DNA from: an uncultured Rickettsiales bacterium
Lineage (GTDB): Bacteria; Pseudomonadota; Alphaproteobacteria; Rickettsiales; JALZUV01
Length of the DNA stretch: 64,000 nt
Reading direction: 5' to 3'
Assembly (NCBI GenBank): GCA_964654855.1
Contig: CAZZJS010000002.1
Location: 15,285-79,284, forward strand
Shown here: piece after piece, positions 3,116 through 17,460 of the stretch
Layout of the letters: each line of letters opens with the position of its first letter
Position numbering within the stretch: the first letter of the stretch is position 1
Program-made: the position numbers and the translations under genes
The notes under the pieces: generated by a model
Told to the model about the DNA's origin: nothing
The model's input: only the letters and a program-made list of their open reading frames with translations
Database searches by the model: none

Positions 3116-3535
3116 ATGGAACTATATGCAAGAACAGATACCTCCTCCCATTCAGGATTAAAAATACTGATCGCAGAAGATGACATGACACATTTCATGC
3201 ACCTCTCCTCACTATTGCGAAAACGTGGGTATTACGTAAAAGTCGTAAATAATGGAAAGGATGCTTTGCACATGCTGCAAACAGAACCTTTTCATGCATT
3301 TTTTCTAGATTTGATGTTGCCTAAAGTCGATGGATTCGAAGTCATTGAAAAGTTACAAGAAACTCCTGAGTTACAAAAAACTCCTGTAATCATTACCTCA
3401 GCGCATATCATGCGTAACTTTATGCACCGGTTCCCTCAAGACAGTGTGAAAGGCTTTTTACCAAAACCTATCGATCCTTCTGTGCTAGATGGAGCATTGA
3501 GAAAAGTAGAGGGTCATGCACCTATCTCATCATAA
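3116..3535 (+). CDS. Single-domain response regulator (REC)
   Basis: KILIAEDD...FFLDLMLPKVDG...ITSA...LPKP. Confidence 0.9.
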   Translation: MELYARTDTSSHSGLKILIAEDDMTHFMHLSSLLRKRGYYVKVVNNGKDALHMLQTEPFHAFFLDLMLPKVDGFEVIEKLQETPELQKTPVIITSAHIMRNFMHRFPQDSVKGFLPKPIDPSVLDGALRKVEGHAPISS

Positions 3536-4367
3536 ACTGCTCGCATGGATCGCATTGATTGGCTGCTTAAATGGGCTTAGTCGATCTATACTCGTTTCAA
3601 TATCAGAGCATGGTATAGTCAATGCGGTTATATCTGGGTTCCATCTCAATTTATTTGTCGTGATTGCCATTATCGCTGCATTGCGCCTGATAATAGGCGC
3701 AAAAGATAGCCACCCCCTCACGCTTACCGATAAGCATATAATCTCATTATTTTTCATTATATTAATGATTCCCAGCGCTATGACTAGCTGGTCTACTCTG
3801 GCTTGTTTCTCACTTTGGTGTATCTGGAAATATCGTCATAACCCGCGGGTATGTGCTGGCTTTTCTATCCTATTGGCCGTTGGAATACGTGAGCCAGTAG
3901 TGATGATATTGTTAAAAAGTCTGGCACCCGTGGTGCTAACTTTAGATGCAGTATTCGCACAAACATTTGCTGACTTTATGGGATTGTCTTCTCAACGCCA
4001 TGATAACCTAATTACTACAGAGCAAGGTCGATCAATTCTTATTCTCGCAGGGTGTTCTTCAGTCAGCAACCTTTCCCTAATTTGGTTAGGGTGGCTGGTC
4101 GTAGCACGCAACCTATCTTATCAATGGCAAAAACGTGATGCACTCGCACTTACAACACTCACCCTGATGGTACTAATACTTAACTGGCTTCGCCTAGCAG
4201 TGCTAACTCTCTCTCAAGAAGCGTATCACTGGCTCCATGGTGAGACCGGCCTCATAGTATATCAAACCATATTACTCATTCTGATGTTTCTAATTATTCG
4301 GAGGATCTATGCAAAAGAGATTATGGATTATTATCATCCTGCTCGCCAGCATCACGCTGTGGGGTAA
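3516..4367 (+). CDS. Exosortase/archaeosortase-family membrane transpeptidase
   Basis: About 8 hydrophobic segments with Cys (ILAGCSSVSNL), Arg (LNWLRLAVL) and His (YHWLHGETG) in the exosortase order. Confidence 0.75.
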   Translation: MHLSHHKLLAWIALIGCLNGLSRSILVSISEHGIVNAVISGFHLNLFVVIAIIAALRLIIGAKDSHPLTLTDKHIISLFFIILMIPSAMTSWSTLACFSLWCIWKYRHNPRVCAGFSILLAVGIREPVVMILLKSLAPVVLTLDAVFAQTFADFMGLSSQRHDNLITTEQGRSILILAGCSSVSNLSLIWLGWLVVARNLSYQWQKRDALALTTLTLMVLILNWLRLAVLTLSQEAYHWLHGETGLIVYQTILLILMFLIIRRIYAKEIMDYYHPARQHHAVG

Positions 4368-4791
4368 GGTCATGCGTTATCATACGCCTCTTCACAACAT
4401 AGAAGAGCATGTAAACATACAGTTAGAAAACACCATGAAAGAGCAAGGTTTCGAGCTTCTGGCACACCAAACCCTCACTTCAAGCGGTGTATTCTCTGCC
4501 TATCATTACACACACCAAAACTGTATTGGAGAGCTTACGATTACTCCTCTTTTCAAAAGCGCAGAAGCCGTCAGCATGGTTCAAAAGGACAGCCAAAAAC
4601 CAGTTTTCTATTATCGCCATTATCAAGGCGAAGCATTTCCGAACTGGTATTATCTCTGGCGCGAAGGAATTGCCCCATTACGACGCATGGCAGAGCTAGA
4701 AACCATTACCTTTCCCGCTGTTCTAGCGATATATGATCCATCAAATTGCGTGCAAGATGCATCCCTTTCGTTTGAGGAGTTCTGGCAATGA
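4309..4791 (+). CDS. Exosortase-adjacent protein with one N-terminal TM/signal segment (EpsI-like position)
   Basis: Hydrophobic LWIIIILLASITLWG followed by a soluble domain; overlaps exosortase 3' end; ATGA overlap with next gene. Confidence 0.55.
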   Translation: MQKRLWIIIILLASITLWGKVMRYHTPLHNIEEHVNIQLENTMKEQGFELLAHQTLTSSGVFSAYHYTHQNCIGELTITPLFKSAEAVSMVQKDSQKPVFYYRHYQGEAFPNWYYLWREGIAPLRRMAELETITFPAVLAIYDPSNCVQDASLSFEEFWQ

Positions 4792-5828
4792 GTCATTTCC
4801 TAAATAAAAAACAAGAAATTTGGCTAACAGTCGATTCCCGTCACTTTGGTGGAATTGAAACACATCTTTACCAACTAGCCACTGGATTGGTCAAAACAGG
4901 CTATCACCCACGTATTGTCTTCTTACGCGATTACGGCAAACACCCTTTAAGAAAGGCATTGCAAAAAGCCGAAATTCCCATCACTACTCTCACCCACCCT
5001 TTACGAGGATGGAAAGAAGCAATCTCACATTATAAACCTGCTTTGATTCATACACATGGTTATAAAGCAGGAATATTAGGCCGCCTCGCCGCTTATCGAA
5101 ATAATATTGCCTGTGTGTCTACCTATCATAGCGGAGATGCCAATAATGGTCGCTTAAAATGCTATCGCTGGTTCGATGAGCACACCGCTTCGCTCGCACA
5201 AAAGGTGATTGCCATAAGCGAGAATGTGGCTGCACGACTCCCCTCTCATGCGGCTATTATCCCTAACTTTGTGCCTGTTCCTTCAGATATCACTGAGCAT
5301 ACCGGTAAGCACATTGCCTTTGTTGGTCGACTTTCACACGAAAAAGGGCCTGACTATTTTGTAGAACTCGCAAAATCACTCCCCCAACACCTCTTTACCG
5401 TATATGGCGATGGCCCCATGCGCGAAACATTAGATGTTGTAGAAAATTTGAATTTTATTGGACAAGTCGATTCAATGGAACCTCACTGGCAAAAGATTGA
5501 TTTGCTTATTATGCCTTCTCGCCGCGAAGGTTTACCACTCGCAGCCTTAGAATCCATGGCACATAGAATCCCCGTAATCGCAAGCGCCGTAGGTGGTCTC
5601 CCCTCTCTTATACAAGATAAAGAAAACGGATTTTTGGTAGAAACCGGTAACCTCGCAGAATTGAGTAAGATTGCCTCTCATTGGTACCAGTTAGATGAGG
5701 TCACTCGCCAAACCATATGCCAAAAAGCGCAACAAACAGTTCGCGAGCAATACTCACCAGAAGTCATTTTACCGCAAATTATTCAACAATATGAGGAAGC
5801 TTATGCGCATCGGCACCCTACTCGGTAG
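4788..5828 (+). CDS. GT4 glycosyltransferase (SypH-like)
   Basis: GGIETH, HTHGYKA, FVGRLSHEKG, PSRREGLPLAALESMA. Confidence 0.9.
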   Translation: MSHFLNKKQEIWLTVDSRHFGGIETHLYQLATGLVKTGYHPRIVFLRDYGKHPLRKALQKAEIPITTLTHPLRGWKEAISHYKPALIHTHGYKAGILGRLAAYRNNIACVSTYHSGDANNGRLKCYRWFDEHTASLAQKVIAISENVAARLPSHAAIIPNFVPVPSDITEHTGKHIAFVGRLSHEKGPDYFVELAKSLPQHLFTVYGDGPMRETLDVVENLNFIGQVDSMEPHWQKIDLLIMPSRREGLPLAALESMAHRIPVIASAVGGLPSLIQDKENGFLVETGNLAELSKIASHWYQLDEVTRQTICQKAQQTVREQYSPEVILPQIIQQYEEAYAHRHPTR

Positions 5829-6963
5829 TTTCCCTGTTTTATCTGAAAGTTTTATTCGTAATGAAATTCATGCATTGCGTAAAACCGGCCTACCCGTTGA
5901 TATCGTTGCGATGGTTAAGGAGGAGAGCACACAGCTTTCCAAACAAGAACAGGAATTGGTAAAGACTGCCACCTATTTGCAAGATCTACCACCCCCATCG
6001 TGGAGTAAGGTATTAAAATTCCTACCCAATATCCTATCAATCATCCCATTTTTGTGGGCACAGAAAGAATTATCACCAGCATCCTTGCTTTATCACGGTA
6101 TCAGAATAGCCCTTAAAGGCTATGAGCTAGGATGGACACATATCCATACGCATTTTGCTTGGGGGCATGCTTCTTACGCGATTGTAGCCGCAAAGTTATT
6201 AAACATTCCCGTTACCTTAACGTGCCATGGATCGGATGTGTATGCCACACCACAAGACTTGCAGGCCAAGTTAGATCATAGTGATTCGATCATTGCCGTA
6301 TGCGATGAAATGCGAGAAACTCTTGCCGCACAAACGCACACTCCTATACAGATAATTGCTTGCGGAGTGGATACAGACGAATTTACTCCACTAAAAACGA
6401 AGAAATCGAATGGTCGATTATTATTCGTCGGACGCTTAATCGATTGCAAAGGCGTGGACGATTTACTGCATGCAATGACTGCATTACCCACCAAACACCG
6501 ATTACCTCTAGATATTATCGGTGATGGCCCTTTGCGCGCTGAACTTGAACAACTCAGCAAAGAATTAGAATTAGACGAGTCAGTTTCTTTCTTAGGCGCA
6601 AAACCAGCCAACTGGTTGAAAAAGAATGGCCCGCATTATCATGCATTTGTCTCTGCATTTCGAGAAGGAGAAGACGGTGCTAAGGATACTGGTCCCATCG
6701 TAATCAAGGAAGCAATGGCAATGGGTTTGCCCATTATAAGCACTGAATTTATGGGAATTCCAGAGATGGTTGACCCCACTTGTGGCACCCTTATTCCTCC
6801 TAAAAATCGCGAAGCATTGCAGCAAGCTCTCTTCCAGCTTTGGGAAAAACCAGAGAGCAAACGACTCAGAATGGGAGAAAATGGCCGAAAGAAGTTAATC
6901 GATAATTTCTCGATTAACAAGCAAATACACGATCTTAGGTCGTTATGGAGTGATCTGGCATAA
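5803..6963 (+). CDS. GT4 glycosyltransferase (SypI/J-like)
   Basis: FPVLSESFIRNEI, HIHTHF, FVGRLIDCKG, DTGPIVIKEAMAMG; start chosen at the ATG after a GAGG SD. Confidence 0.9.
   Translation: MRIGTLLGSFPVLSESFIRNEIHALRKTGLPVDIVAMVKEESTQLSKQEQELVKTATYLQDLPPPSWSKVLKFLPNILSIIPFLWAQKELSPASLLYHGIRIALKGYELGWTHIHTHFAWGHASYAIVAAKLLNIPVTLTCHGSDVYATPQDLQAKLDHSDSIIAVCDEMRETLAAQTHTPIQIIACGVDTDEFTPLKTKKSNGRLLFVGRLIDCKGVDDLLHAMTALPTKHRLPLDIIGDGPLRAELEQLSKELELDESVSFLGAKPANWLKKNGPHYHAFVSAFREGEDGAKDTGPIVIKEAMAMGLPIISTEFMGIPEMVDPTCGTLIPPKNREALQQALFQLWEKPESKRLRMGENGRKKLIDNFSINKQIHDLRSLWSDLA
6832..6846. promoter_or_regulatory. Candidate activator-binding palindrome
   Basis: TTCCA-GCTTT-GGGAA, about 110 bp upstream of the sigma54 site at 6956. 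Confidence 0.45.
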
Positions 6964-6971
6964 GTCATGCT
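6956..6971 (+). promoter_or_regulatory. sigma54 -24/-12 promoter for flippase-ligase-DUF1194
   Basis: TGGCAT-AAGTC-ATGCT (GG-N10-GC) spanning the GT stop codon, 47 bp before ATG 7019. Confidence 0.6.
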
Positions 6972-7018
6972 CCCAACAATTAGCAAGAATTAATTACTAA
7001 TTTTAATAAGGAACATGC

Positions 7019-8323
7019 ATGCGTCACTTTTTTCGCTCTTTAAACCATGCCCTCTGCTACGCGTTGGCGATTGCATTAGGCAAAGGTGTGTCGCTTTTGA
7101 TGCTACCCATTATCACCCATGCATTACCCGTTGCTGATTATGGACGATTAGAGCTAATGGTCGCCATTGCGGATATGGGGGGAGTTTTGCTTGGATTTAG
7201 CCTCGTCGATGCGCTATTTCGTTTCTCGGGCAGTGCTAAAACTCTAAAGCGCTCCAAAAAGCAAGCCGCCTCTATTTTTGGATTATGTTTAGTTTTGGCA
7301 CTTGTTGCGCTTTTATTCGGACAGCTATTAATACCAGCCTTACTACTTATCTTACCTGAATCCGTTATCGAAAGTGAGTTACGCATTCTGCTAGCCACCT
7401 TGTCGTTAACGGCTTTAATACAGGTACCGCTAGCCTGGTTACGCATGCAAGATCATGTGTACCGCTATTGTTTCTTATTTGGCGGGAAGGCACTACTCCA
7501 AGCTGGGCTAATCTGGACAGCACTGCATGCAGGTTATGGTGTTGTAGGTATCTTACTAGCAGGGTTAATGGTCGATCTTCTGCTTTGCGCCATTTTGTGC
7601 GCACAACAATATAGTCAAACTTCTGTGCGCTTTCACTGGTTAGAGACAAAATGTATTCTACCTTATAGCCTGCCTTTAATTCTGGGCGCGTTAGCTTGTT
7701 GTCTGCTCGGCAGTTTTGATCGTTTCTTTTTAGCCCCAATCGTAGGGGAAACGGCCTTGGCTCATTATGCATTAGCCGGTAAATTTGCTTTGATGGTCGC
7801 GCTACTCGCTGAACCTTTTAACATGTGGTGGTTTCCTCGTCGTTTTCGTCTCCTACAAGAACAAGATGGTGCATTACACAGCGCACGCAATGTGATGCTG
7901 GGAGTCGGCTATATTACTATCGCAGCAGCCATGGTTTCTGCGTTAGCTCCTTGTTTAATCACATGGCTAACTCCTGAAACTTATCACTCAGCTACCAAAT
8001 GGGTAGCGCCCTTATGCGGGATCGCGGCCTTACATGCGATCACTAACTTAATGAATATTGGAGTTTATGCAGGACGCACCGGCTGGCTCCCTAGCTTCAT
8101 CAACTTAAGCAGCGCAACTATCGCACTCATCGGATACCTACTACTTATCCCAATACACGGTGTCGGCGGTGCTATTGGTGCCACTTATCTGGCATTCGGA
8201 GTACGATTCGGTCTCTTTTTCTTCCTCAGTCAACAGCGTGTACCCATTCCTTATTTACGAGGTCTCGCCTCATTATGGAGCGATATAGGATTCAAAAGGA
8301 GGCTGTCTTATGAGCTTTCCTAA
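7019..8323 (+). CDS. Wzx-type polysaccharide flippase (SypK-like)
   Basis: Many TM segments; LLMLPIITHALPVADYG; DRFFLAPIVG..ALAHYALA. Confidence 0.85.
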   Translation: MRHFFRSLNHALCYALAIALGKGVSLLMLPIITHALPVADYGRLELMVAIADMGGVLLGFSLVDALFRFSGSAKTLKRSKKQAASIFGLCLVLALVALLFGQLLIPALLLILPESVIESELRILLATLSLTALIQVPLAWLRMQDHVYRYCFLFGGKALLQAGLIWTALHAGYGVVGILLAGLMVDLLLCAILCAQQYSQTSVRFHWLETKCILPYSLPLILGALACCLLGSFDRFFLAPIVGETALAHYALAGKFALMVALLAEPFNMWWFPRRFRLLQEQDGALHSARNVMLGVGYITIAAAMVSALAPCLITWLTPETYHSATKWVAPLCGIAALHAITNLMNIGVYAGRTGWLPSFINLSSATIALIGYLLLIPIHGVGGAIGATYLAFGVRFGLFFFLSQQRVPIPYLRGLASLWSDIGFKRRLSYELS

Positions 8324-9746
8324 TACGGCCAGCATCGCAATGAATGCACACACACCCGCTTCTCCTGCTATACTAACTGGATTGATGTGGCTGTGGTGTC
8401 TTGTGGGTATGGGAGTGCTCTATACCACAAGGGAGCCTCTCTTTTTACTGGTAATGATGATTCTACCACTCAGTGCCATCATGGGACTAAAACTCCCTTT
8501 CTTACTAGCAATGGGCTTTGTGCTATTCTCTTTCTTCCGAATACATGAAGCGTTCCCCTTTTTGATGCCGCTTCATATTCCCAAGCTCCTTTCCTTAGGA
8601 GCAATCGCAAGCTTTAGTTTGCTGTTATTACAGAAGCGTATCAAACTATTCTGGACTACTGAACTCACCTGCTTCGCCCTCTTTTTCTTCTATTGTAGCA
8701 TCAGTATTCTTTTAGCCGAAAACCGTGGATTGGCCTTTGCTTATTGGAGTGGCATTTACGCAAAAATTGCACTCATGGTATTCATCATTACCTACCTTAC
8801 GCGAACGCCACGCCAACTTCGCTGGATTAGCCGACTCATTGTGCTGACAGGTATGACAATTGCTATCGTTGCCATCAAAAACAAATTGCAAGGTATTGGA
8901 CTAGTCGAAGGCACACGCGTAACCATCAGCCGTGATTTAGGTAGCATCTTAGGCGATCCTAATGATCTAGCACTCACTCTACTCTTCCCATTCAGCTTTG
9001 CTATTACCATGGCCATGCGCTGGGGAGTACGGTGGGTAGACCGCTTCGTCGGCATTTTGGGAACAGGCATCATCTTGCTCGCCATTATTTATACGCAGAG
9101 CCGAGGCGGACTGCTTGGGATTGCTACCGTTATATTCACCCTAACCTGGTTTAGAGTACGTTCAAAAACCTTACTTATCGCCGGTGCTTTTTGCGCTGTT
9201 CTAGTATTATTTACATTAGCCGGTATTGCGGATCGCGCATCTGGCGGAACCCATGAAGAAGGACTAGATGAATCCGCCAGTATTCGTTTACATGCATGGA
9301 TGGCAGCTTTCAAAATGGCACTCTATAACCCGTTGACCGGTGTTGGGCTCGACAACTTTTATGCAAATTTCTTTTTCTATTCCGATTTCTGGGACAATAA
9401 AAACCACGCCGTACACTCCACTTGGTTTGGCGTAATGGCCGAAACAGGTTTTGTAGGATTCGGTTTATTTATCGCAATGATTTGGCAGTTATTGCGTACT
9501 GCTCGTAAATTGCATACGGCAACCTTGCATGCTGTACGAGCCGATGGAAAAGCCATTAGCCTTTCCATCACTTCTGAAGCGTTATTGGCAGGTATTCTTT
9601 CGTTCATTGTTTCTGGAACGTTCCTTACTCAGGGCTTTACCTGGCCAATATACATTCTGCTCGCACTAACCGTTGCGACCGTTCATATCCATCAGCAAAC
9701 GCTGAAAGATTCACACAGAAACCAATTAAACAGGAGATTATTATGA
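8310..9746 (+). CDS. O-antigen ligase/Wzy-type polymerase (SypL-like)
   Basis: LGDPNDLA, YTQSRGGLLG, SASIRLHAW, PLTGVGLDNF, HAVHSTW. Confidence 0.9.
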   Translation: MSFPNTASIAMNAHTPASPAILTGLMWLWCLVGMGVLYTTREPLFLLVMMILPLSAIMGLKLPFLLAMGFVLFSFFRIHEAFPFLMPLHIPKLLSLGAIASFSLLLLQKRIKLFWTTELTCFALFFFYCSISILLAENRGLAFAYWSGIYAKIALMVFIITYLTRTPRQLRWISRLIVLTGMTIAIVAIKNKLQGIGLVEGTRVTISRDLGSILGDPNDLALTLLFPFSFAITMAMRWGVRWVDRFVGILGTGIILLAIIYTQSRGGLLGIATVIFTLTWFRVRSKTLLIAGAFCAVLVLFTLAGIADRASGGTHEEGLDESASIRLHAWMAAFKMALYNPLTGVGLDNFYANFFFYSDFWDNKNHAVHSTWFGVMAETGFVGFGLFIAMIWQLLRTARKLHTATLHAVRADGKAISLSITSEALLAGILSFIVSGTFLTQGFTWPIYILLALTVATVHIHQQTLKDSHRNQLNRRLL

Positions 9747-10627
9747 TTTGTTTTTTCAAAAAACTGGTTGTTCCTGCCTTCATGGCAAGCACAACCTTAT
9801 TATACAGCACGCAAGCTTCGGCTCAGGATGTTGATGTAGAGCTTCAGCTTTTAATCGATGTATCTGGCAGTGTTAGCACCAGTGAGTATAATCTGATGAT
9901 GGATGGCTACGCTAACGCCTTCCGTAACGATTCAGTTCAGGACATTATCCTGAATAATTCTGGCGAAAATTTCGGAAGTATTGCTGTCCAAACGGTGATG
10001 TGGTCTAGCCAAAACCTACAGAGTACCATGACCGATTGGACCCTTCTCAATAGTATCGACAGTATTAATAATTACGCCTCTACCCTAGGCAGTATGGATC
10101 GTGCTTTTGGCGGCGCCACTTATCTGGCAGAAGGTCTTGATTACGGTGCCAATCTATTTTCGGATAATGGCTTTAACGGTACACGTAGCGTGATCGACAT
10201 TTCCGGCGACGGATATGGTTATGATTATCTGTATAAAGATTATTCTTTCTTCACAGGCGGAGATACTGCAACCCAGCGTGATGACGTGCTGGCCTCTGGT
10301 ATCACTACCATTAATGGGATTACGTTGGAAGGCACCTATGCTCAGTCTGGCGACCAAACCCTCACAGAATGGTATTCAACTAATGTAACAGGTGGTGATA
10401 ATGCTTTTGTCATCGCTGCAAATGGATTTGGTGACTTCGAGCGTGCTTTGGTCACCAAATTAAGCGCCGAGATTGAAGGTGGCTACATTCCGATCGAAGC
10501 CACTCCGGCCAATCCGATTGATACCGCACCCGCTCCCATTCTGGGAACTGGTCTTCCCATTTTGTTGCTTCTGCTACTATATAATAAATTTTTATTTATA
10601 AAAAACAGACAGTTAAGTGTGGCATAG
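9743..10627 (+). CDS. Secreted DUF1194 (vWA-fold) protein with PEP-CTERM-like C-terminal sorting signal
   Basis: Signal peptide ending ASA-QD; DVELQLLIDVSGSVS; VIDISGDG; TINGI; C-terminus APAPILGTGLP-ILLLLLLY-NKFLFIKNR. Confidence 0.8.
   Translation: MICFFKKLVVPAFMASTTLLYSTQASAQDVDVELQLLIDVSGSVSTSEYNLMMDGYANAFRNDSVQDIILNNSGENFGSIAVQTVMWSSQNLQSTMTDWTLLNSIDSINNYASTLGSMDRAFGGATYLAEGLDYGANLFSDNGFNGTRSVIDISGDGYGYDYLYKDYSFFTGGDTATQRDDVLASGITTINGITLEGTYAQSGDQTLTEWYSTNVTGGDNAFVIAANGFGDFERALVTKLSAEIEGGYIPIEATPANPIDTAPAPILGTGLPILLLLLLYNKFLFIKNRQLSVA
10533..10547. promoter_or_regulatory. Candidate activator-binding palindrome inside the sorting-signal codons
   Basis: CTCCC-ATTCT-GGGAA about 73 bp upstream of the sigma54 site at 10620; half-site TTCCCATTTT 21 bp further on. 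Confidence 0.45.
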
Positions 10628-10635: not shown

Positions 10636-10734
10636 CCTCTTTTGTTAGACATAATGACAAAAGAGGAGTTTAGCCATGTGTGGCATTACCAACAAAACCG
10701 ATGCTCTCGAATTAGTGAAAGTTGGAGTAAGAAC

Positions 10735-11430
10735 ATGACCGTTTACGCATTAAAACAATGGGTCAAAAATGGTGATCATCCAGTCGCAAGACAAATAAAA
10801 CGCGTCGCACGAAGCGGCATGCCGCAAATCACATTCTTACATCGCAACCTGTATCGCCTGCACATAGGGTTACGCAACTTATGGGCCGAAACTACACGAA
10901 TTTTCTATTACACTCCTTTACTGCAAGCACGGTTAGTTTTTCCTTGTAAGCAGCTTTATCTTTATAGTGGCTTACCTTTTATCACTGGCTCGCTAGAAAT
11001 CACCTTAGGTGATAATTGTCGTATCTCAGGAAAAACAACTTTCAGCGGCCGCCCGGCAAGCGGCACACCTTCTTTAGTCGTGGGTAATAATTGCGATATT
11101 GGTTGGCAAAATACTATCGCCGTCGGCACTAAGGTAGAATTAAAAAACAATGTACGTTTAAGCGGCAATGTTTTCTTAGCGGGCTATCCCGGACATCCAT
11201 TAGATCAACAAGATCGCGCAGCCGGATACCCCTGCACACAAGAACAAATCGGCGATATTATTTTAGAAGACGATGTATGGCTAGCAACCGGCGTTACCGT
11301 CTTAGCGGGTGTCACAGTTGGTAAAGGCAGCATCATCGGCGCAAGCAGCGTCGTCACCAAAGACATTCCAGCTGGTGTCGTAGCAGCTGGCGTTCCAGCT
11401 CGTATCGTAAAGGAGCTAAACCATGACTGA
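10735..11430 (+). CDS. Hexapeptide-repeat sugar O-acetyltransferase (SypM-like)
   Basis: GHPLD, DIILEDDVWLATGVTVLAGVTVGKGSIIGASSVVTKDIPAG..AAGVPARIVK; start at the ATG after a GGAG SD. Confidence 0.9.
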   Translation: MTVYALKQWVKNGDHPVARQIKRVARSGMPQITFLHRNLYRLHIGLRNLWAETTRIFYYTPLLQARLVFPCKQLYLYSGLPFITGSLEITLGDNCRISGKTTFSGRPASGTPSLVVGNNCDIGWQNTIAVGTKVELKNNVRLSGNVFLAGYPGHPLDQQDRAAGYPCTQEQIGDIILEDDVWLATGVTVLAGVTVGKGSIIGASSVVTKDIPAGVVAAGVPARIVKELNHD

Positions 11431-12544
11431 TATTATTGTTTTCGGCGAAGATTACGGCGTACACCCGAGTTCTACTCAGCATTTAATGAATCGCTTAGCA
11501 GCAAATCATCGCATTATCTGGTTGAACTCTATCGGTTTACGTGCACCAAAACTTACATTGAACGATATGATGCGAATTATTCGTAAAGCCACAACGATAT
11601 TAACCGCGCGTCTTGCTCGAACAGATTCCGCACAGAATCAAACTAAAGCTCCTTTTCCAGTCTTACAGCCTATTGCCTTACCTTTCCCAGACTCTTCATT
11701 GGCACGTAAGGTCAATCAATGGCTGCTTAAACGCCAAATGCAAAAACTCATCAAGCGTTACGACTTACAACACCCTACCTTATGGACATCCCTTCCCTCT
11801 GCTGTGGATGCGGTCTGCCCAGAAATGAAACGCACCCTCTATTACTGTGGTGATGACTTCTCAGCGCTGGATGGGGTTGACCATAAGGCTGTTGAAGCGA
11901 TGGAAACAGAGCTAATTGATCAAGCTGATTTAGTTATTTCAGCCAGCAAATCTCTCCATCAACGCATGCCGCAAGAAAAACGCCTATTTCTCCCACATGG
12001 CGTTGATATTACACTATTTACCCGTAGGTTAGCCTGCCCACCAGAACTACAAAAAACGCGTAAACGTGCTTGCTTTTATGGCTCCATTGCTTCTTGGGTC
12101 AAGCTAGATTGGATTGCGTATGCGGCGCGTATGTTACCTGAATGGGAATTCATTTTAATCGGCAATATTAAAGCAGATGTTTCATCACTAAAGACAGAAC
12201 AAAACATCATCTTTACTGGTGCAATGGCTCATGATGAATTGGTACGCTATGCCAACCATTGCGATGTCTTGCTTATGCCATTTGCAGATAATGGACAGAT
12301 TCGCCACTGCAATCCGCTCAAACTTTATGAGTATTTGGCCATCGGAAAGCCGATTGTCACCACACAATTTCCAGCGATTGAACCATATCAGTCATTGCTT
12401 CACATCGCCGATTCAGCTGAGAGCTTTGTCTCTTGTCTGCTGGAAGCAGAAAAAGAAGGCAATCGACGCCTTCGCCAACGACAACAATCCGTACGCTGGG
12501 AAGATTGGAACCAACGTGCACAACAACTGGAGGAATGGCTATGA
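11423..12544 (+). CDS. Glycosyltransferase family 1/4 (SypN-like)
   Basis: GEDYGVHPSSTQHL, YYCGDDF, CNPLKLYEYLAIGKPIV. Confidence 0.85.
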   Translation: MTDIIVFGEDYGVHPSSTQHLMNRLAANHRIIWLNSIGLRAPKLTLNDMMRIIRKATTILTARLARTDSAQNQTKAPFPVLQPIALPFPDSSLARKVNQWLLKRQMQKLIKRYDLQHPTLWTSLPSAVDAVCPEMKRTLYYCGDDFSALDGVDHKAVEAMETELIDQADLVISASKSLHQRMPQEKRLFLPHGVDITLFTRRLACPPELQKTRKRACFYGSIASWVKLDWIAYAARMLPEWEFILIGNIKADVSSLKTEQNIIFTGAMAHDELVRYANHCDVLLMPFADNGQIRHCNPLKLYEYLAIGKPIVTTQFPAIEPYQSLLHIADSAESFVSCLLEAEKEGNRRLRQRQQSVRWEDWNQRAQQLEEWL

Positions 12545-12888
12545 TGAACCGCACCCCCCTTACACTCTTACTTATAATGCTTGGTCTAAGTGCCTGCGCG
12601 CCGCAAACCATTCATGATCTAATTCCCGCACATCAACTTAATATGATGCAAGTTGAGTCTTACATACAACCAGAAGGTGGTTTTTTACTCAAACCCGATC
12701 TGGCTGAGCCAAAACAACCAGCAGCGGAAGTTGTGGCACCGGCAATACCTCAGACTCACCCAGCGTGGGCTCCCGCAGCTCATCCAGCGCCCAATAGCAT
12801 AACCTCACCTTCTGAAGCGATTTCGGTTTCTAGCATGTTGCAACAAACACTTGATTACGCCCAAGACAACAAAGGAAATTCAAAATGA
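12541..12888 (+). CDS. Small Pro/Ala-rich lipoprotein
   Basis: Lipobox LSAC after hydrophobic LTLLLIMLG; ATGA overlaps on both sides. Confidence 0.65.
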   Translation: MMNRTPLTLLLIMLGLSACAPQTIHDLIPAHQLNMMQVESYIQPEGGFLLKPDLAEPKQPAAEVVAPAIPQTHPAWAPAAHPAPNSITSPSEAISVSSMLQQTLDYAQDNKGNSK

Positions 12889-14495
12889 CGCACCATACTA
12901 TCGTGATTGAACGTATCATTTATCGAGTACTCGAAATTGCATGGCGATTCCGAAAAACGATTATCCGCCCTATTCTAGTGATGCCAGTGTTAGCACTCGT
13001 TATTGGATTAGCGATCCCTAAAACGTACCAACTGCAAACAACTATCCTTTTTCAGGAACCTTCAAAAATCAACCCTTTCATGGAAGATATTTCAATTGGC
13101 ACCAGTTTAAAAGAACGTATGAAATCGCTCAATGCACTGTTACATAGCCACCACATGTTGGCAGGTGTACTGACCGACCTAAAGATTATTAATAAAGATA
13201 CCGATCCTAGAGAAGTAGCACAACATGTTGACCGCATTTCAGGCACCTTAAAAGCTGAATTAGCTGGAGACGATTTAGTCACTATTAGTGTGAGAAACCA
13301 CAATCCTACTCAAATGAATGCCACACTAGAAAGAGTCTCACGCCGCTTTATTGAGAAGGTGCTTACCCCAGCCTGGACCTCTCTCACTAACTCTGAGAAA
13401 TTTCTAAAAGAAGAACTCACCAAAAGCCATAAAAGCCTGACCGAAGCAGAAAACGCCTTAGCCGAATTCAAATCAAAACACTCTCAGGAATTACCAATGC
13501 TGCACTCCTCTAACGTGGCAAGATTGGCAAAAATTCAGAGCGACCTAGCAGATAAACGTAGCACACTATCAGGAGCAGAAGGTGCGGCAAAATCACTTGA
13601 AGGGCGGCTCGTGCAAACCAATCCTGTGATTGGCCGGTTAGAAGAAAAAATTATTCACTATAGCAGTGACTTAGCGCTCTTACGTTCTCGTTATACAAAC
13701 GCACATAGCAAAGTAAAAGCGGCTAAACGCACACTGAATCGCCTGCAAGAAGAACGAAATCGTTTATTAGAAACCGATATTTCACAATTGGATCAGGCTG
13801 TGCAAACCGCTAGCACTAACCATATATGGAATATAACCGTCGACGATAATAAAACCCAACCATTACTCGTTTCACAGATGGAACAAATGGATCTAGCTCG
13901 CACACGCATCACCAGTCTGACCGAAGAAATTACAGTACTTGAACAGGCGGAAGCAGAATTACAAGAGAAAGTGCATAACTTTGGATCAGTTGAACGGCAG
14001 TTATTAGAATTAGAACGAAAAACGACCGTACATCGCGAGCTACATGCCAATATGCTACGCCGTAGCGAAATGGCTCGTGTTACAGGCGATTTAAGCAAAT
14101 TTGAAGTACCTTCACGTGTCAAAATTCTTGACCGCCCTTTCAAACCACCTGTGCGTATCACTCCACCATTATTAATCTTTGTCATTGTCGGAGCCATCGG
14201 TGGGTTAATGATCGGCTGCGCACTAGCGGCAATTCTCAACGCAACAGACACCACCATTCGCTATCCCCATCAACTGGCTAATTTTGCAGGTGCCCCCGTA
14301 CTGATGAATTTAGGACCACAGACTTCTATCCAGCTTTTTGACCCAGATGAGCCAATTGATAACCCTAGTCGTTTTAAAACATATGCAAATACCTTCAAGC
14401 ATCAAACAGTCAAAGCAGCAAGAATCTCTACCCACAAATTCTCACAATCCAGAAAAGGAGCCTTCTCATGGATCAAAAAGCACCTAAACCGCTAA
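12885..14495 (+). CDS. Polysaccharide co-polymerase / chain-length determinant (Wzc/GumC N-terminal type, SypO-like)
   Basis: N-terminal TM + PKTY..QTTILFQEP, long coiled coil with RYTNAHSKV, ILDRPFKP + C-terminal TM; no kinase domain. Confidence 0.85.
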   Translation: MTHHTIVIERIIYRVLEIAWRFRKTIIRPILVMPVLALVIGLAIPKTYQLQTTILFQEPSKINPFMEDISIGTSLKERMKSLNALLHSHHMLAGVLTDLKIINKDTDPREVAQHVDRISGTLKAELAGDDLVTISVRNHNPTQMNATLERVSRRFIEKVLTPAWTSLTNSEKFLKEELTKSHKSLTEAENALAEFKSKHSQELPMLHSSNVARLAKIQSDLADKRSTLSGAEGAAKSLEGRLVQTNPVIGRLEEKIIHYSSDLALLRSRYTNAHSKVKAAKRTLNRLQEERNRLLETDISQLDQAVQTASTNHIWNITVDDNKTQPLLVSQMEQMDLARTRITSLTEEITVLEQAEAELQEKVHNFGSVERQLLELERKTTVHRELHANMLRRSEMARVTGDLSKFEVPSRVKILDRPFKPPVRITPPLLIFVIVGAIGGLMIGCALAAILNATDTTIRYPHQLANFAGAPVLMNLGPQTSIQLFDPDEPIDNPSRFKTYANTFKHQTVKAARISTHKFSQSRKGAFSWIKKHLNR

Positions 14496-15577
14496 CCGTA
14501 CAAATTGTACAACATTTACGCCCAGGAGGAATTGAGATGTTGGCGTTAGAGTTCCTGCGCCATCAATCGGATAACTCATCTACACATCTTATTAGTTTAG
14601 AGGGAACAGCAGAAGAAACCTTTCAGCAATGGTCAAAACTGAAAGATTATGCAGATCAAATTACCTTCTTGAATAAACCACAAGGAATTCATATTCCTAC
14701 TTTATTCAAGCTTACAAAACTTTTCAGAGAATGGAATGCGAACAGCATCCATACCCACCACATTGGCCCGCTGCTTTACGCAGGCATGGCTGCCCGCCTC
14801 GCAGGCTGTCAGAACCTTATTCATACCGAACATGATAGTTGGCATTTGCAACAAGAATCTGAGCGTAAATTGCAAGGAACCCTACTACGTTTACTCAGAC
14901 CAAAACTAGTAGCAGATAGCCAACATGTTGCTCGGGAACTGGATCGATTTTATCCATTTTCACAAAGCGAAGTAATCTTAAATGGCATTGATACAACCCG
15001 CTTTATACCAGGAGACAAACTAAACGCACGCAAAGCTCTGGCATTACCCAAAAACGCCAAACTAATTGGCTGTGCTGCACGATTAGAAACCGTAAAAAAT
15101 CATAGCCTTATTTTTCAAGCTCTGCGAAAGTTACCTAAAGAATACCATCTAGCACTTGCGGGCTCGGGCTCTTTAGAAGAACCACTAAAACATCAAGCAA
15201 CTATACTCGACATTACTGAACGGGTTCATTTTCTAGGACATGTCGATGATATTGTCTCTTTCTATCAATCACTTGATGCTTTTTGCCTTCCCTCCTTGAA
15301 AGAAGGCTTACCACTATCACTTTTAGAGGCACAAGCGGTTGACGTTCCTGTAATAGCAAGCGATGTAGGAAGTTGCCGAGAGGCATTGGCGCCGCAAAAA
15401 AGCCAACTTTTTCCTTCTAATAACCTGCCCGCTCTTCTTGAATCGGTAGAAGGTATATTTAAAGCTGATGCTTCACCCCAAACACGCAGCTTTGTTCTTG
15501 AGCAATTCAGCCTAAATAAGATGATCGAAAGCTATCAATCTCTTTGCGTAACAACAATGAGAGGAATATCATCATGA
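14468..15577 (+). CDS. GT4 glycosyltransferase (SypP-like)
   Basis: VQHLRPGGIE, HTHHIGPLLYAG, HTEHD, NGID, PSLKEGLPLSLLEAQA. Confidence 0.9.
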   Translation: MDQKAPKPLTVQIVQHLRPGGIEMLALEFLRHQSDNSSTHLISLEGTAEETFQQWSKLKDYADQITFLNKPQGIHIPTLFKLTKLFREWNANSIHTHHIGPLLYAGMAARLAGCQNLIHTEHDSWHLQQESERKLQGTLLRLLRPKLVADSQHVARELDRFYPFSQSEVILNGIDTTRFIPGDKLNARKALALPKNAKLIGCAARLETVKNHSLIFQALRKLPKEYHLALAGSGSLEEPLKHQATILDITERVHFLGHVDDIVSFYQSLDAFCLPSLKEGLPLSLLEAQAVDVPVIASDVGSCREALAPQKSQLFPSNNLPALLESVEGIFKADASPQTRSFVLEQFSLNKMIESYQSLCVTTMRGISS

Positions 15578-16752
15578 TCGTACCCATAAGTTTAATCGCT
15601 GGAATAATTGCTGTTATATGCGCCTTGTTGATCGTTTATCACCACGCGATCTGGCCTGTATTTTTGATGCTTCTAGCACGTATAAAGGCAGATGAAACAC
15701 AGCAACCAACGCCCAAGATCATTCCATCTGAGCTTCCCTCAATTTGCGTCATTATTCCCGTATATAATGAGGTTAAATTTATCGCTGATAAGCTATGGAA
15801 TTGCGCTATGCTGGATTATCCGCCCGAAAAACTAAGAATCCGGCTGATTTTTGATGGATGCACCGACCAAACAACCGTAATTGCACGTGAAACACTGAAA
15901 AATCCTATTTTTCGTCATTTACCAATATTTTTAGAGATCGAACAAGAAAACCACGGAAAACAGGCTATTCTTACCCAAGCTATTGAATCTTCTAATGAAG
16001 AAATTATCGTGCTTTCTGATTGTTCTTCTATGCTTTCTATGGATAGCCTAAAGCGTATTATCACTAGATTTAGGGATGAAACATTAGGCGTCGTATGCGC
16101 TAGCTACGAGCTTTTATACTCTGGATCAGCAGGCGAACAACAATATTGGAAATACCAGAAGAAAATTAAGACTGCTGAGAGCAAGTTAGGAAGTGTTTTA
16201 GGCGCTCACGGCGCTTGTTACGCATTTCGTCGTACATTATACCACCCATTACCCGCTAATACGATCAATGATGACTTTGTGCTACCTATGCAGATCGTCA
16301 AACAAGGCTATCGAGCCATTTATGATCAAGAAATCATCGCATTAGAGTTAGAAAAAGCCGACGAAGAGTTTGATTTCCATCGCCGTATTCGCATTGGAGC
16401 CGGAAATATGCAGCAATGCCAATTACTTATGGAAATGATACATCCACGTTATGGCATGACAGCACTTTCTTTTTTCTCTGGCAAAGTATTACGCACAGCG
16501 ATGCCTTATGTGATGCTTAGTGCGTTTATATTGAGCGGAGTCGCCTCACTAGAAATAAATGAATTCTTGCTACTCTTTGTTCCTCAACTCTTTGTTTATG
16601 CACTAGTTATAGTGAGTATTAAGCTCAATATCACTCAAGGAAAGCTAGCAAGCTTACGTTATCTAGTGTTAGGGCACCTTGCCGGCTTAATAGGCTCTTT
16701 ACGCTATTTTTTCACCCCTAAACAACTTAAATGGCAGGAGATTTCCTCATGA
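15574..16752 (+). CDS. GT2 glycosyltransferase (SypQ-like)
   Basis: IIPVYNE, DGCTD, LSDCS, GAHGACYAFR, INDDF, RRIRIGAGNMQQ. Confidence 0.9.
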   Translation: MIVPISLIAGIIAVICALLIVYHHAIWPVFLMLLARIKADETQQPTPKIIPSELPSICVIIPVYNEVKFIADKLWNCAMLDYPPEKLRIRLIFDGCTDQTTVIARETLKNPIFRHLPIFLEIEQENHGKQAILTQAIESSNEEIIVLSDCSSMLSMDSLKRIITRFRDETLGVVCASYELLYSGSAGEQQYWKYQKKIKTAESKLGSVLGAHGACYAFRRTLYHPLPANTINDDFVLPMQIVKQGYRAIYDQEIIALELEKADEEFDFHRRIRIGAGNMQQCQLLMEMIHPRYGMTALSFFSGKVLRTAMPYVMLSAFILSGVASLEINEFLLLFVPQLFVYALVIVSIKLNITQGKLASLRYLVLGHLAGLIGSLRYFFTPKQLKWQEISS

Positions 16753-17393: not shown

Positions 17394-17402
17394 AATGTAA
17401 AC

Positions 17403-17418
17403 TGGCACACCCGTTGCT
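17403..17418 (+). promoter_or_regulatory. sigma54 -24/-12 promoter for the STAS (sypA-like) operon
   Basis: TGGCAC-ACCCG-TTGCT, full consensus, 42 bp upstream of ATG 17461. Confidence 0.85.
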
Positions 17419-17460
17419 CCTATTCAGATACGTTAAGACGAATTAATAAAGGAGCAAATC

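What the first reader, a model, noticed from the sequence alone, without database searches (positions are those of the whole stretch)
3516..10627. Exosortase-like gene, partner gene and a candidate substrate with an atypical APAPILGTGLP sorting signal inside a biofilm EPS locus
Seen in sequence: 3516-4367 has the Cys/Arg/His arrangement of exosortases (AGCSS, NWLR, HWLH). It is followed by a single-TM partner gene. A secreted DUF1194/vWA protein in the same locus ends in APAPILGTGLP + ILLLLLLY + basic residues. Established: exosortases process proteins with a Pro-rich motif, a TM helix and a basic tail (PEP-CTERM, VPLPA, VPDSG, VPEID classes) and are often linked to EPS genes. Inference: this is a self-contained sortase-substrate pair with a PxPxxGxGLP signal that anchors a vWA adhesin to the EPS matrix. 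I do not recognise the signal as one of the named classes, although similar VPGPxxGxGLP tails exist in other Alphaproteobacteria.
Basis: partly seen in the sequence, partly recalled or inferred. Interest (0 to 1): 0.85.

Follow-up and report, generated by a model that had tools for sequence, protein, structure and literature searches.

The report
Unnamed exosortase clade with APxP-tailed substrate
A biofilm-polysaccharide gene cluster encodes a very divergent membrane "exosortase", a small helper protein and one secreted vWA-like protein. The vWA-like protein's C-terminal tail (A-P-x-P-x-x-G-x-G, membrane helix, basic end) is found in other genomes only next to this enzyme family, so the three genes look like a previously unnamed protein-sorting system.

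Summary
ORF 3516-4367 carries the exosortase Cys/Asn-x-x-Arg/His-x-x-x-Gly motifs. It is the only exosortase-like gene in a 99%-complete 1.9-Mb genome. It matches no named Xrt/Art subfamily model and sits at the edge of the superfamily signature model (22 bits, cut-off 23).

It belongs to a large unnamed clade: 529 clusters at 50% identity, with N164, C180, N223, R226 and H241 invariant.

The downstream 160-aa single-TM gene is a conserved partner. In some clade members it is fused to the enzyme. It is not EpsI by profile comparison.

The DUF1194 protein (9743-10627) is the only protein in the genome with such a tail. In 6 of 6 genomes with this tail type, the clade is present. In ten genomes whose DUF1194 has a PEP-type, other or no tail, it is absent, and three of those checked have canonical exosortases. 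An eleventh genome, with an APGPGIG tail, also lacks the clade and has a canonical exosortase.

Near other clade members the same A-P-x-P-x-x-G-x-G tail sits on unrelated passengers: DUF4114 proteins and 70-100-aa secreted proteins.

Best reading: a new exosortase subfamily with its own signal variant and accessory protein, embedded in a Syp-like EPS locus. Cleavage and the acceptor are inferred, not shown.

The parts
3516..4367 (+). Exosortase-family membrane protein (283 aa) of an unnamed clade. Putative catalytic residues: C180 (nt 4053-4055), N223/R226 (4182-4193) and H241 (4236-4238). N164 (4005-4007) is also invariant.
   Evidence: TIGR04178 scores 22 bits (cut-off 23) and 25.3 bits, and is the only hit in the genome. 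The family profile finds 529 clusters. hhalign against XrtA gives 91.5%. A KD scan gives 8 hydrophobic segments. A GAGG sits upstream of the ATG.
4309..4791 (+). Partner or accessory protein (160 aa). It has an N-terminal TM helix (residues 4-22) and a periplasmic domain with invariant G60, C72, P80, E86 and P111, plus a second Cys aligned near the C-terminus in 7 of 8 sequences (C147).
   Evidence: Conserved directly downstream of the enzyme in L001, L002, L010, L013, L125, L161, L168 and L169, and more weakly in L102, L105, L107/108, L111, L128 and L130. Fused to the enzyme's C-terminus in P0174, P0177, P0180 and P0214. No Pfam or NCBIfam family hit. hhalign against EpsI gives 0.4%.
9743..10627 (+). 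DUF1194 / vWA-like secreted protein (294 aa), the candidate substrate. Signal peptide at 9743-9823. MIDAS-like DxSxS at 9857-9871.
   Evidence: PF06707 at E 9.4e-49 and VWA_2 weakly. 264 homologues found. Alignment A6.
10526..10624 (+). C-terminal sorting signal. A262-P-A-P265 at 10526-10537, G268-x-G270, a hydrophobic helix of about I266-Y280, and basic residues K282, K287 and R289.
   Evidence: A262, P263, P265 and G268 are invariant in 22 homologues. Logo over 46 tails. It is the only such tail in the genome. No named sorting-domain model hits it.
4788..9746 (+). EPS genes between the enzyme pair and the substrate: GT4 (4788-5828), GT4 (ORF 5695-6963), Wzx-type flippase (7019-8323) and Wzy/O-antigen-ligase-like protein (8310-9746).
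   Evidence: Pfam and NCBIfam hits. The order is conserved in L002 and partly in L010, L125 and L161.
10642..25035 (.). Rest of the Syp-like EPS locus: hexapeptide acetyltransferase, GT, small lipoprotein-like ORF, chain-length determinant (12885-14495), GT4, GT2, Bac_transf (16731-17393), STAS (17461-17784), unknown (17781-18224), Wza-like exporter (18212-20440), ParA-like (20442-21197), EEP family (21149-22207), RsbW-REC-PP2C (22182-23714, minus strand) and GT4 (23758-25035).
   Evidence: The same gene set surrounds the DUF1194 or DUF4114 substrates in L002, L004, L005, L125 and L161.

Best explanation
The three genes form a dedicated protein-sorting module of the exosortase type, inside a Wzx/Wzy-dependent, Syp-like exopolysaccharide locus.

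Proposed mechanism:
1. The DUF1194 (vWA-like, MIDAS-bearing) protein is exported through Sec by its N-terminal signal peptide.
2. It is held in the inner membrane by its C-terminal helix. The basic end stays in the cytoplasm, and the A-P-A-P-x-x-G-x-G motif lies at the periplasmic face.
3. The 8-TM enzyme (3516-4367) recognises that motif. It uses C180, assisted by R226 and H241, to cut off the anchor through a thioacyl intermediate.
4. The enzyme passes the mature protein to an acceptor, so that it ends up outside the cell together with the polysaccharide.
5. The small single-TM partner (4309-4791) acts with the enzyme. It is fused to the enzyme in some relatives and occupies the place that EpsI has in XrtA systems, but it is unrelated to EpsI in sequence.

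Shown here:
- Family relationship and motif conservation.
- One enzyme and one tail in the genome.
- Tight, replicated co-occurrence and co-localisation of this enzyme clade, the partner and the tail, on three unrelated passenger types.

Inferred by analogy with sortase, ArtA and XrtA: cleavage, the thioacyl mechanism, the acceptor and the final location.
For: Family:
- TIGR04178 is the only model that hits the protein.
- The clade has 529 clusters at 50% identity, with N164, C180, N223, R226 and H241 invariant.
- Of 58 members, 35 touch TIGR04178 and 9 touch PF09721. None fits a named subfamily (best E-values 1e-6 to 4e-8).
- hhalign against XrtA gives 91.5% and aligns all three motifs.

One-to-one in this genome:
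- There is a single exosortase-like gene, no PEP-CTERM hit and no rhombosortase.
- There is a single APxP tail.

Co-occurrence:
- The clade is present in all 6 genomes whose DUF1194 carries the SAPAPxAGSG tail: G000, G001, G002 (Kiloniella), G003, G005 and G006. It is absent at E<=1e-3 from 10 genomes whose DUF1194 has a VPEP, VPAP, other or no tail.
- Three of those 10 (G007, G008, G010) were checked and carry canonical 294-532-aa exosortases at 62-75 bits.
- In the five other tail-bearing genomes no other exosortase is detectable.
- In an even sample of 401 genomes of the class, the clade occurs in 11. The APAP-type DUF1194 (>450 bits) occurs in 2, and both are among those 11.

The tail is a transferable module:
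- In 8 of 9 further clade loci, an ORF within 20 kb (5 of them adjacent) ends in [AVM]P[AGSV]P-x-x-G-rich helix-Arg cluster. These are DUF4114-like proteins and ~90-100-aa secreted proteins.
- The control set of 1.13 Mb gave 2 real-looking hits, both VPAP PEP-CTERM proteins of Corallincola, plus 2 spurious hits.
- Four metagenome loci repeat the pattern (L125, L127, L128, L129). In L128 the tail sits on a 70-aa secreted protein.
- In L161 and L168 one locus has both a DUF4114 and a DUF1194 protein with near-identical '(E)VYSAPAPLAG' tails.
- In L013 the enzyme, partner and DUF1194 genes are directly adjacent.

Partner: conserved next to the enzyme and fused to it in four representatives.
Against: - There is no experimental evidence of cleavage for this family. 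The acceptor is unknown for every exosortase.
- The protein scores just below the TIGR04178 cut-off in the protein scan (22 against 23). The Gly of the classical Cys-x-Gly motif is replaced by Ser or Ala.
- The tail regex is not fully specific. One genome (G004) has a DUF1194 with an 'APGPGIG' tail but lacks this clade and has a canonical exosortase. PEP-CTERM tails with VPAP also exist.
- The basic cluster of the window's own tail is weak (K, K, R spread over 8 residues).
- One clade locus (L109, a 10.9-kb contig) showed no tail ORF.
- Many of the 46 tails in the logo come from one protein family and are not independent.
- The partner model is only medium confidence (pLDDT 68) and has no fold match, so its role is a guess.
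Confidence: 0.75

Rival explanations
1. It is just a very divergent XrtA/PEP-CTERM system. The enzyme is a fast-evolving XrtA-type exosortase, and the APAP tail is a degenerate PEP-CTERM with Glu replaced by Ala. On this reading there is no separate class.
For: - The locus has XrtA-flavoured neighbours: TIGR03007 'XrtA system chain length determinant' at 182 bits and TIGR03097 'exosortase A-associated O-ligase' at 134 bits, both below their cut-offs.
- More distant DUF1194 homologues carry true PEP-CTERM tails, some as VPAP.
- hhalign links the clade to XrtA.
- Same-order relatives G153 and G507 have an EpsI domain in a 532-543-aa ORF, as expected of an EpsI-fused, XrtA-type exosortase.
Against: - No XrtA model or any named Xrt subfamily model hits the protein or 58 relatives significantly.
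- TIGR02595 and PF07589 do not detect the tails, although they detect the VPAP control.
- EpsI is replaced by an unrelated partner family.
- The proteins are about 280 aa, against about 500 aa for the EpsI-fused forms.
- The superfamily signature model misses the clade in 4 of 5 genomes.
- The clade is large and internally coherent.
Confidence: 0.12
2. The tail is only a permanent membrane anchor. The DUF1194 protein stays tethered to the inner membrane facing the periplasm. The exosortase-like protein has another role in the EPS pathway, or is an inactive relic.
For: - Cleavage has not been shown.
- The basic cluster of the window's tail is weak.
- Many DUF1194 proteins have no tail at all and are simply periplasmic or secreted (bioRxiv 10.1101/2024.09.26.615229).
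Against: - A plain anchor does not need an invariant A-P-x-P-x-x-G-x-G at the membrane edge.
- The same motif recurs on unrelated passengers only next to this enzyme clade.
- The Cys, Arg and His are invariant over 58 diverse members, which argues for a working active site.
Confidence: 0.08
3. The tail is processed, but by another enzyme such as a rhombosortase, a CPBP/myxosortase-type protease or signal peptidase. The linkage with 3516-4367 would then only reflect shared EPS-locus ancestry.
For: The enzyme, partner and substrates all lie in one conserved Syp-like locus. Part of the co-occurrence could therefore be synteny inherited together rather than functional coupling.
Against: - There is no rhombosortase in the genome, and the tail has no GlyGly or Cys motif.
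- In several clade loci outside Syp-like contexts, small tail-bearing ORFs lie directly upstream of the enzyme (L098, L099, L103, L110, L128).
- The closely related DUF1194 that carries a different tail in G004 lies outside an EPS locus, in a genome that has a canonical exosortase and lacks the clade.
Confidence: 0.05

Closest known systems
XrtA/EpsH exosortase with PEP-CTERM substrates and EpsI (Haft et al. 2006, PMC1569441)
   Same: - A multi-pass membrane protein with a Cys, Asn-x-x-Arg and His-x-x-x-Gly.
- It is encoded in an EPS locus.
- Substrates have an N-terminal signal peptide and a tripartite C-terminal signal: a Pro-containing motif, a TM helix and a basic end.
- An accessory TM protein is encoded downstream or fused.
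- A sigma-54-type response regulator is nearby.
   Different: - No XrtA or other named subfamily model matches.
- C-S-S replaces C-x-G.
- About 280 aa, with no EpsI. The partner is unrelated to EpsI by profile comparison.
- The signal is A-P-[AGV]-P-x-x-G-x-G rather than V-P-E-P and is invisible to TIGR02595/PF07589.
- There are one or two substrates per genome encoded in the same locus, rather than a median of eight scattered ones.
Dedicated exosortase/archaeosortase systems with their own signal classes (from my own knowledge of TIGRFAMs/NCBIfam: XrtD/VPLPA-CTERM, XrtC/VPDSG-CTERM, XrtE/VPEID-CTERM, ArtA/PGF-CTERM)
   Same: One enzyme subfamily is paired with one signal variant, and the substrate is often encoded next to the enzyme.
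   Different: None of these enzyme or signal models reaches significance here. Weak hits to ArtE, ArtD, XrtX, XrtD, XrtN and XrtT occur in a minority of clade members only. VPLPA-type tails occur on other DUF1194 proteins (P0061, P0086), but not on those that accompany this clade.
Vibrio fischeri syp (symbiosis polysaccharide) locus (from my own knowledge)
   Same: STAS protein plus RsbW-REC-PP2C protein (SypA/SypE-like), sigma-54 response regulator, Wza-like exporter, ParA-like protein, Wzx, Wzy-like protein, several GT4/GT2 enzymes, an acetyltransferase and an initiating sugar transferase.
   Different: As far as I know the syp locus has no exosortase, partner or tail-bearing protein. Here these three are inserted into the locus.
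DUF1194 (PF06707), vWA-like proteins
   Same: Full-length match (E 9.4e-49), a MIDAS-like DxSxS and a signal peptide.
   Different: This subfamily (>450 bits to A6) has about 40 extra residues and the APAP tail. Most alphaproteobacterial DUF1194 proteins have no tail. Some are discussed as possible T11SS partners (10.1101/2024.09.26.615229).

Membership tests
Exosortase/archaeosortase superfamily (EpsH; TIGR04178, PF09721) | Invariant Cys at the most conserved motif (Cys-x-Gly) | tested here: met
   C180 is invariant in 58 relatives and aligns with EAC(S/N)G of XrtA. The Gly is replaced by Ser or Ala (GCSS, GCTS, GCAS, GCSA).
Exosortase/archaeosortase superfamily (EpsH; TIGR04178, PF09721) | Asn-x-x-Arg and His-x-x-x-Gly motifs downstream of the Cys | tested here: met
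   N223, R226 and H241 are invariant and G245 is >=90% conserved. They align with the same motifs of XrtA.
Exosortase/archaeosortase superfamily (EpsH; TIGR04178, PF09721) | About eight transmembrane segments | tested here: met
   A Kyte-Doolittle window scan gives 8 hydrophobic segments. This is a crude method and no topology predictor was available.
Exosortase/archaeosortase superfamily (EpsH; TIGR04178, PF09721) | Score above the curated model cut-off | tested here: inconclusive
   TIGR04178 scores 22.0 bits against a cut-off of 23 in the protein scan and 25.3 bits in the six-frame scan. PF09721 gives no hit for the window protein but hits 9 of 58 relatives. hhalign gives 91.5%.
Exosortase/archaeosortase superfamily (EpsH; TIGR04178, PF09721) | Co-occurrence with a cognate C-terminal tripartite signal | tested here: met
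Exosortase/archaeosortase superfamily (EpsH; TIGR04178, PF09721) | Proteolytic or transpeptidase processing of the signal | not testable with these tools
   Needs MS of the mature C-terminus in wild type and in enzyme mutants.
XrtA (exosortase A) system | Match to the XrtA subfamily model, or to any named Xrt model | tested here: not met
   No subfamily model appears at E<=10 for the window protein. Across 58 relatives there are only weak scattered hits.
XrtA (exosortase A) system | EpsI domain fused or adjacent | tested here: not met
   TIGR02914 gives no hit in the genome. Partner against EpsI by hhalign gives 0.4%.
PEP-CTERM sorting domain (TIGR02595, PF07589) | Near-invariant Pro-Glu-Pro and a model score above cut-off | tested here: not met
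   The tail reads A-P-A-P. TIGR02595 gives no hit in the genome or on the tails. PF07589 is absent from the close homologues but present on distant ones.
PEP-CTERM sorting domain (TIGR02595, PF07589) | Tripartite layout at the extreme C-terminus plus an N-terminal signal peptide | tested here: met
   Motif, then a helix of about 15 residues, then K/K/R at the end of a 294-aa protein with signal peptide M1-A27.
EpsI family (TIGR02914, PF11984), for the partner | Sequence or profile similarity to EpsI | tested here: not met
   No hit at E<=10. hhalign gives probability 0.4%. Only the position is EpsI-like: downstream of the enzyme or fused to it.
DUF1194 / vWA clan, for the substrate | Full-length PF06707 match and a MIDAS DxSxS | tested here: met
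   PF06707 at E 9.4e-49 covers model positions 1-204 of 206. D39, S41 and S43 are invariant.

The most novel reading that the evidence does not exclude
This is a distinct, so far unnamed exosortase class with three parts:
- A compact 8-TM enzyme that the standard signature model largely misses.
- Its own accessory protein family, sometimes fused to the enzyme.
- Its own A-P-x-P-x-x-G-x-G sorting signal.

The class would attach one or two specific secreted proteins (vWA-like DUF1194, DUF4114 or short peptides) to a Syp-type polysaccharide or to the cell surface. Small genomes, and the cultured Kiloniella sp. GXU_MW_B19, each encode one detectable enzyme. This genome encodes exactly one substrate. 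In Kiloniella one substrate was seen, but the genome was not scanned for further tails. That makes this a minimal system in which the long-unknown acceptor of exosortase reactions could be identified.
Probability: 0.55. Interest if true: 0.7.

Novelty: new variant of a known kind. Interest (0 to 1): 0.6.

Why it matters
Exosortases are widespread, but what they attach their substrates to is still unknown, and most systems have many substrates.

This clade is numerous, with 529 clusters at 50% identity. Current models barely see it. In 4 of 5 genomes the superfamily signature model misses it, and no sorting-domain model sees the tails. Both the enzymes and their substrates are therefore annotated as hypothetical or plain DUF proteins.

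Naming the clade, its partner and its signal would improve annotation of biofilm loci in marine Alphaproteobacteria and their relatives. It would also assign a cellular destination to a subset of DUF1194 and DUF4114 proteins.

The arrangement seen here (one enzyme, one partner and one or two substrates in one locus, including in a cultured Kiloniella) offers a simple genetic system. It could be used to test cleavage, the role of the accessory protein and the nature of the acceptor.

Tried and rejected
- The search for related loci with the enzyme alignments (A4, A5) failed because no stretch was conserved enough. I used the DUF1194 alignment and whole-genome profile searches instead.
- The word-based homologue search for the enzyme found only 2 close relatives. 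The exhaustive profile search was needed to see the family.
- The partner gave no family hit. Profile comparison with EpsI was negative. The AF2 model has pLDDT 68, and Foldseek against PDB gave nothing below E 0.25. The fold and role of the partner remain unknown.
- No solved structure is related to the enzyme family.
- Rhombosortase as an alternative processing enzyme is absent from the genome.
- A canonical PEP-CTERM reading of the tail was rejected. TIGR02595 gives no hit in the genome, and no sorting-domain model reaches its cut-off on the tails.
- Literature searches for DUF1194 or DUF4114 with exosortase, for syp with exosortase, and for Zetaproteobacteria stalk with vWA found nothing relevant.
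- One look-up failed because the gene start was wrong. It was repeated successfully.
The Pro is not conserved (4 of 46 tails), although GLP recurs on the small-protein substrates.

Full report
**Setting**

The window is C2:15285-79284 of a 1.92-Mb, 17-contig assembly estimated 99% complete, with about 45% G+C. The closest public relative of the locus is a MAG that NCBI labels 'Rickettsiales bacterium' (GCA_029252805.1). Whole-genome searches place the organism in the same class as Kiloniella.

Positions 1-25 kb of the window form one long exopolysaccharide locus, almost all on the + strand. The genes, in order:
- The end of a sigma-54 response regulator.
- Two receiver-domain proteins.
- UDP-glucose dehydrogenase.
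- The three genes of the finding, interleaved with two GT4 enzymes, a Wzx flippase and a Wzy/O-antigen-ligase-like protein.
- An acetyltransferase, more glycosyltransferases, a chain-length determinant and the initiating sugar transferase.
- A STAS protein, a Wza-like exporter and a ParA-like protein.
- An RsbW-REC-PP2C protein on the opposite strand.

This is the gene set of a Syp-type biofilm polysaccharide locus. The comparison with Vibrio fischeri syp is from my own knowledge.

**The observation**

ORF 3516-4367 (283 aa) reads ...ILAGC180SSVSN......LN223WLR226L... and ...YHWLH241GETG245.... Haft et al. 2006 (PMC1569441) define the EpsH/exosortase family by an invariant Cys in Cys-x-Gly, then Asn-x-x-Arg, then His-x-x-x-Gly, on an 8-TM protein. 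Here the Cys, the N-x-x-R and the H-x-x-x-G are present. Only the Gly after the Cys is replaced by Ser. A crude hydropathy scan gives eight hydrophobic segments.

ORF 4309-4791 (160 aa) overlaps the first gene by 59 nt, has a GGAGG before its ATG, and has one N-terminal hydrophobic segment.

ORF 9743-10627 (294 aa) is a full-length DUF1194 (PF06707, E 9.4e-49). It has a Sec-type signal peptide and D39-x-S41-x-S43. It ends DT-A262-P-A-P265-I-L-G268-T-G270-LPILLLLLLY-NKFLFIKNRQLSVA.

**Is the enzyme an exosortase, and of which kind?**

Against all 18,950 NCBIfam models, only the superfamily signature TIGR04178 appears, even at E<=10. It scores 22.0 bits against a cut-off of 23 and 25.3 bits in the six-frame genome scan, where it is the only hit in the genome. 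No named subfamily model (XrtA to XrtY, ArtA to ArtF, CrtA to CrtC) hits. Pfam gives nothing.

The word-based search found only two close relatives. The exhaustive profile search found 529 representative clusters at E<=1e-3 and 191 at <=1e-10, mostly 260-300 aa.

In an alignment of 58 of these, the only invariant columns are N164, C180, N223, R226 and H241. Scanned one by one:
- 35 of 58 touch TIGR04178.
- 12 touch ArtE.
- 9 touch PF09721.
- A few touch XrtX, XrtD, XrtN or XrtT.

All of these hits are weak, with best E-values of 1e-6 to 4e-8.

I compared the clade profile with XrtA N-terminal domains taken from genomes that have EpsI-fused exosortases. The probability is 91.5% (E 8.5e-7) over 141 columns. 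It aligns G-N164 with GN, C180 with EAC(S/N)G, N223/R226 with N-x-x-R and H241 with H-x-x-x-G.

The protein is therefore a real member of the exosortase/archaeosortase superfamily, with an intact putative active site. It belongs to a clade that has no model of its own. In four of five other genomes, TIGR04178 does not even detect the clade member.

**The partner**

The 160-aa gene is conserved directly downstream of the enzyme in these loci:
- The sister MAG (L002) and a metagenome contig (L001), at 64% identity.
- Kiloniella sp. (L010).
- L013, L125, L161, L168 and L169.
- More weakly, L102, L105, L107/108, L111, L128 and L130.

Four representatives of 442-484 aa (P0174, P0177, P0180, P0214) are fusions. 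The enzyme is followed by a TM helix and a domain that aligns with the partner. Invariant residues are G60, C72, P80, E86 and P111, in a motif like H-x-x-C-x-G-S-[LI]-x-x-x-P-[LM]-x-[RK]-[NS]-[AS]-E. A second Cys is aligned near the C-terminus in 7 of the 8 sequences.

This is the position EpsI has in XrtA systems, downstream or fused (PMC1569441). But the partner profile shows no similarity to an EpsI profile (hhalign probability 0.4%). EpsI is absent from this genome, while two same-order genomes carry it inside a 532-543-aa ORF.

An AlphaFold2 model (pLDDT 68) shows a TM helix, a second helix and a small alpha/beta domain. Foldseek found no PDB match. Its biochemical role is open.

**The tail**

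Among 264 DUF1194 homologues, the 30-odd closest (53-75% identity, 280-320 aa) all end in the same kind of tail, while more distant ones vary:
- In 22 aligned close sequences, A262, P263, P265 and G268 are invariant. The typical form is (E)VYS-APAP-LAGSGLLS-LLL...-basic.
- More distant homologues carry true PEP-CTERM tails (PF07589; VPEP, IPEP or VPAP), VPLPA-like tails, or no tail.

No NCBIfam sorting-domain model reaches its cut-off on the window's tail, on P0011 or P0019, or on seven other tails. A VPAP-type control (P0057) scores 25 bits on TIGR02595 against a cut-off of 16.

In the window's own genome TIGR02595 finds nothing. My motif scans of all six frames find this one tail, plus spurious ORFs.

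**Co-occurrence**

Positive side. The clade is present, once, in every genome whose DUF1194 carries the SAPAPxAGSG-type tail:
- The window's genome.
- G001 (L002).
- G002, Kiloniella sp. GXU_MW_B19 / b19.
- G003, G005 and G006.

In L013 the enzyme (1508-2374), partner (2229-2855) and DUF1194 (2970-3839) genes are adjacent. In Kiloniella and in G003 they lie 12-15 kb apart in the same Syp-like locus. In the five other genomes no other exosortase is detectable.

Negative side. Ten genomes whose DUF1194 has a VPEP, VPAP, IPVPG, other or no tail lack the clade at E<=1e-3. The three of them I checked have canonical exosortases of 294-532 aa at 62-75 bits.

Unbiased sample. In 401 genomes drawn evenly from the class, 11 have the clade. 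116 have some DUF1194, but only two have the APAP-type (>450 bits against <=161 bits for all others). Both of those are among the 11.

**The tail moves between passengers**

Around nine further clade members from that sample I fetched up to 40 kb each. In eight of the nine an ORF ends in [AVM]-P-[AGSV]-P, then a Gly/Ala-rich helix, then an Arg cluster. Five of these ORFs lie directly next to the enzyme. The passengers are:
- 90-100-aa secreted proteins: L098 EAPAPLLGVGLP, L099 SVPGPAAAVGL, L103 MPGPIAGAGLP, L107 GAPSPGLAAAG, L110 GAPGPDFGLG.
- 330-360-aa DUF4114-like proteins: L101 AAPVPALGAG, L106 AAPAPGLGAG, L111 TAPAPPLEAA.

The same scan gave only two real-looking hits over 1.13 Mb of control loci, which are DUF1194 loci of genomes without the clade. 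Both hits are VPAP PEP-CTERM proteins of Corallincola.

Four metagenome loci repeat the pattern:
- L125: enzyme, partner, GT4, GT4, DUF4114 with TAPVPEAGSSLL, Wzx, Wzy.
- L127: the fused enzyme-partner followed by DUF4114 with AAPAPKLGSSLL.
- L129: DUF4114 with TAPIPALGSGL.
- L128: a 70-aa protein with GAPATIIGAGLP just upstream.

In L161 (a MAG labelled Zetaproteobacteria) and in L168 (G003), one locus holds both a DUF4114 protein and a DUF1194 protein. Their last 30 residues begin almost identically, VYSAPAPLAG(C/S/G)(G/S).

Over 46 tails the logo is: A 44, P 46, [AGV] 43, P 45, x, x, G 43, x, G 33. Many of these tails come from one protein family, so the independent evidence is the recurrence on three unrelated passenger types.

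**Limits**

- One DUF1194 (P0016, L012, G004) has a related 'GAPGPGIG' tail. It lies outside an EPS locus in a genome that lacks the clade and has a canonical 575-aa exosortase. The short regex is therefore not fully specific, and some APGP tails probably belong to other exosortases.
- One clade locus on a 10.9-kb contig showed no tail ORF.
- Part of the co-occurrence could be shared synteny of the Syp-like locus. However, the small-protein loci are not Syp-like.
- Nothing here shows cleavage, the acceptor or the final location. 'Anchors an adhesin to the EPS matrix' is a reasonable guess, not a result.

**Verdict**

The three genes are best explained as a dedicated exosortase-type sorting module of a clade that has not been named or modelled. 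It has its own accessory protein and its own A-P-x-P-x-x-G-x-G signal variant, and it serves one vWA-like DUF1194 substrate in this genome. Sister loci also have DUF4114 or small-protein substrates.

I found no paper linking DUF1194 or DUF4114 to exosortases. The find is a new variant of a known kind rather than a new kind of system. Its practical value lies in annotation, and in offering a minimal system, with a cultured Kiloniella homologue, for the unsolved biochemistry of exosortases.

Noticed in passing
window 17461-17784 (+) and 22182-23714 (-); also 1-459 (+): A STAS protein and an RsbW-kinase/REC/PP2C protein (SypA/SypE-like partner switch), plus the end of a sigma-54 response regulator, flank the EPS genes. 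The same regulators accompany the DUF1194 locus in Kiloniella (L004) and L005/L161.
   Followed up: partly
window 12433-12888 (+): A small ORF just before the chain-length determinant has no family hit. From the internal Met of MNRTPLTLLLIMLGLSAC it reads as a lipoprotein signal (lipobox LSAC). An unannotated 107-221-aa ORF holds the same position in L002, L004, L005/L006 and L125.
   Followed up: no
window 21149-22207 (+): An endonuclease/exonuclease/phosphatase-family gene (PF03372) sits inside the EPS locus after the ParA-like gene. The same family occurs in the related locus L125 (4959-5954). Its role in polysaccharide production is unclear.
   Followed up: no
genomes G153 and G507 (same order as the window's genome): The nearest sampled relatives lack this clade and the APAP-type DUF1194. 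They carry an EpsI domain inside a 532-543-aa ORF, the size expected of an EpsI-fused XrtA-type exosortase. The sorting system therefore appears to differ between families within one order.
   Followed up: partly
L024 and L083 (Nitrosopumilaceae/Nitrosotenuis MAG contigs): Archaeal DUF1194 homologues end in a different helix-plus-basic tail (for example ...WMVPVLGSVAGLGAYLIKTRSHKEL). This may be a further sorting-signal type on the same passenger domain.
   Followed up: no
window 1347-2807 (-): The UDP-glucose/GDP-mannose dehydrogenase homologue (486 aa) has a hydrophobic C-terminal extension (...STAGTFLAIMCLMLAGEWFYI). The L002 orthologue has a similar length (479 aa).
   Followed up: no
L107 4769-5113 (-) and L110 5334-5690 (+): Two of the small tail-bearing proteins next to clade members share a motif before the tail (EDNFN...ANCNSA[LI][IV]L.C). 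This suggests a small conserved Cys-containing cargo family.
   Followed up: no
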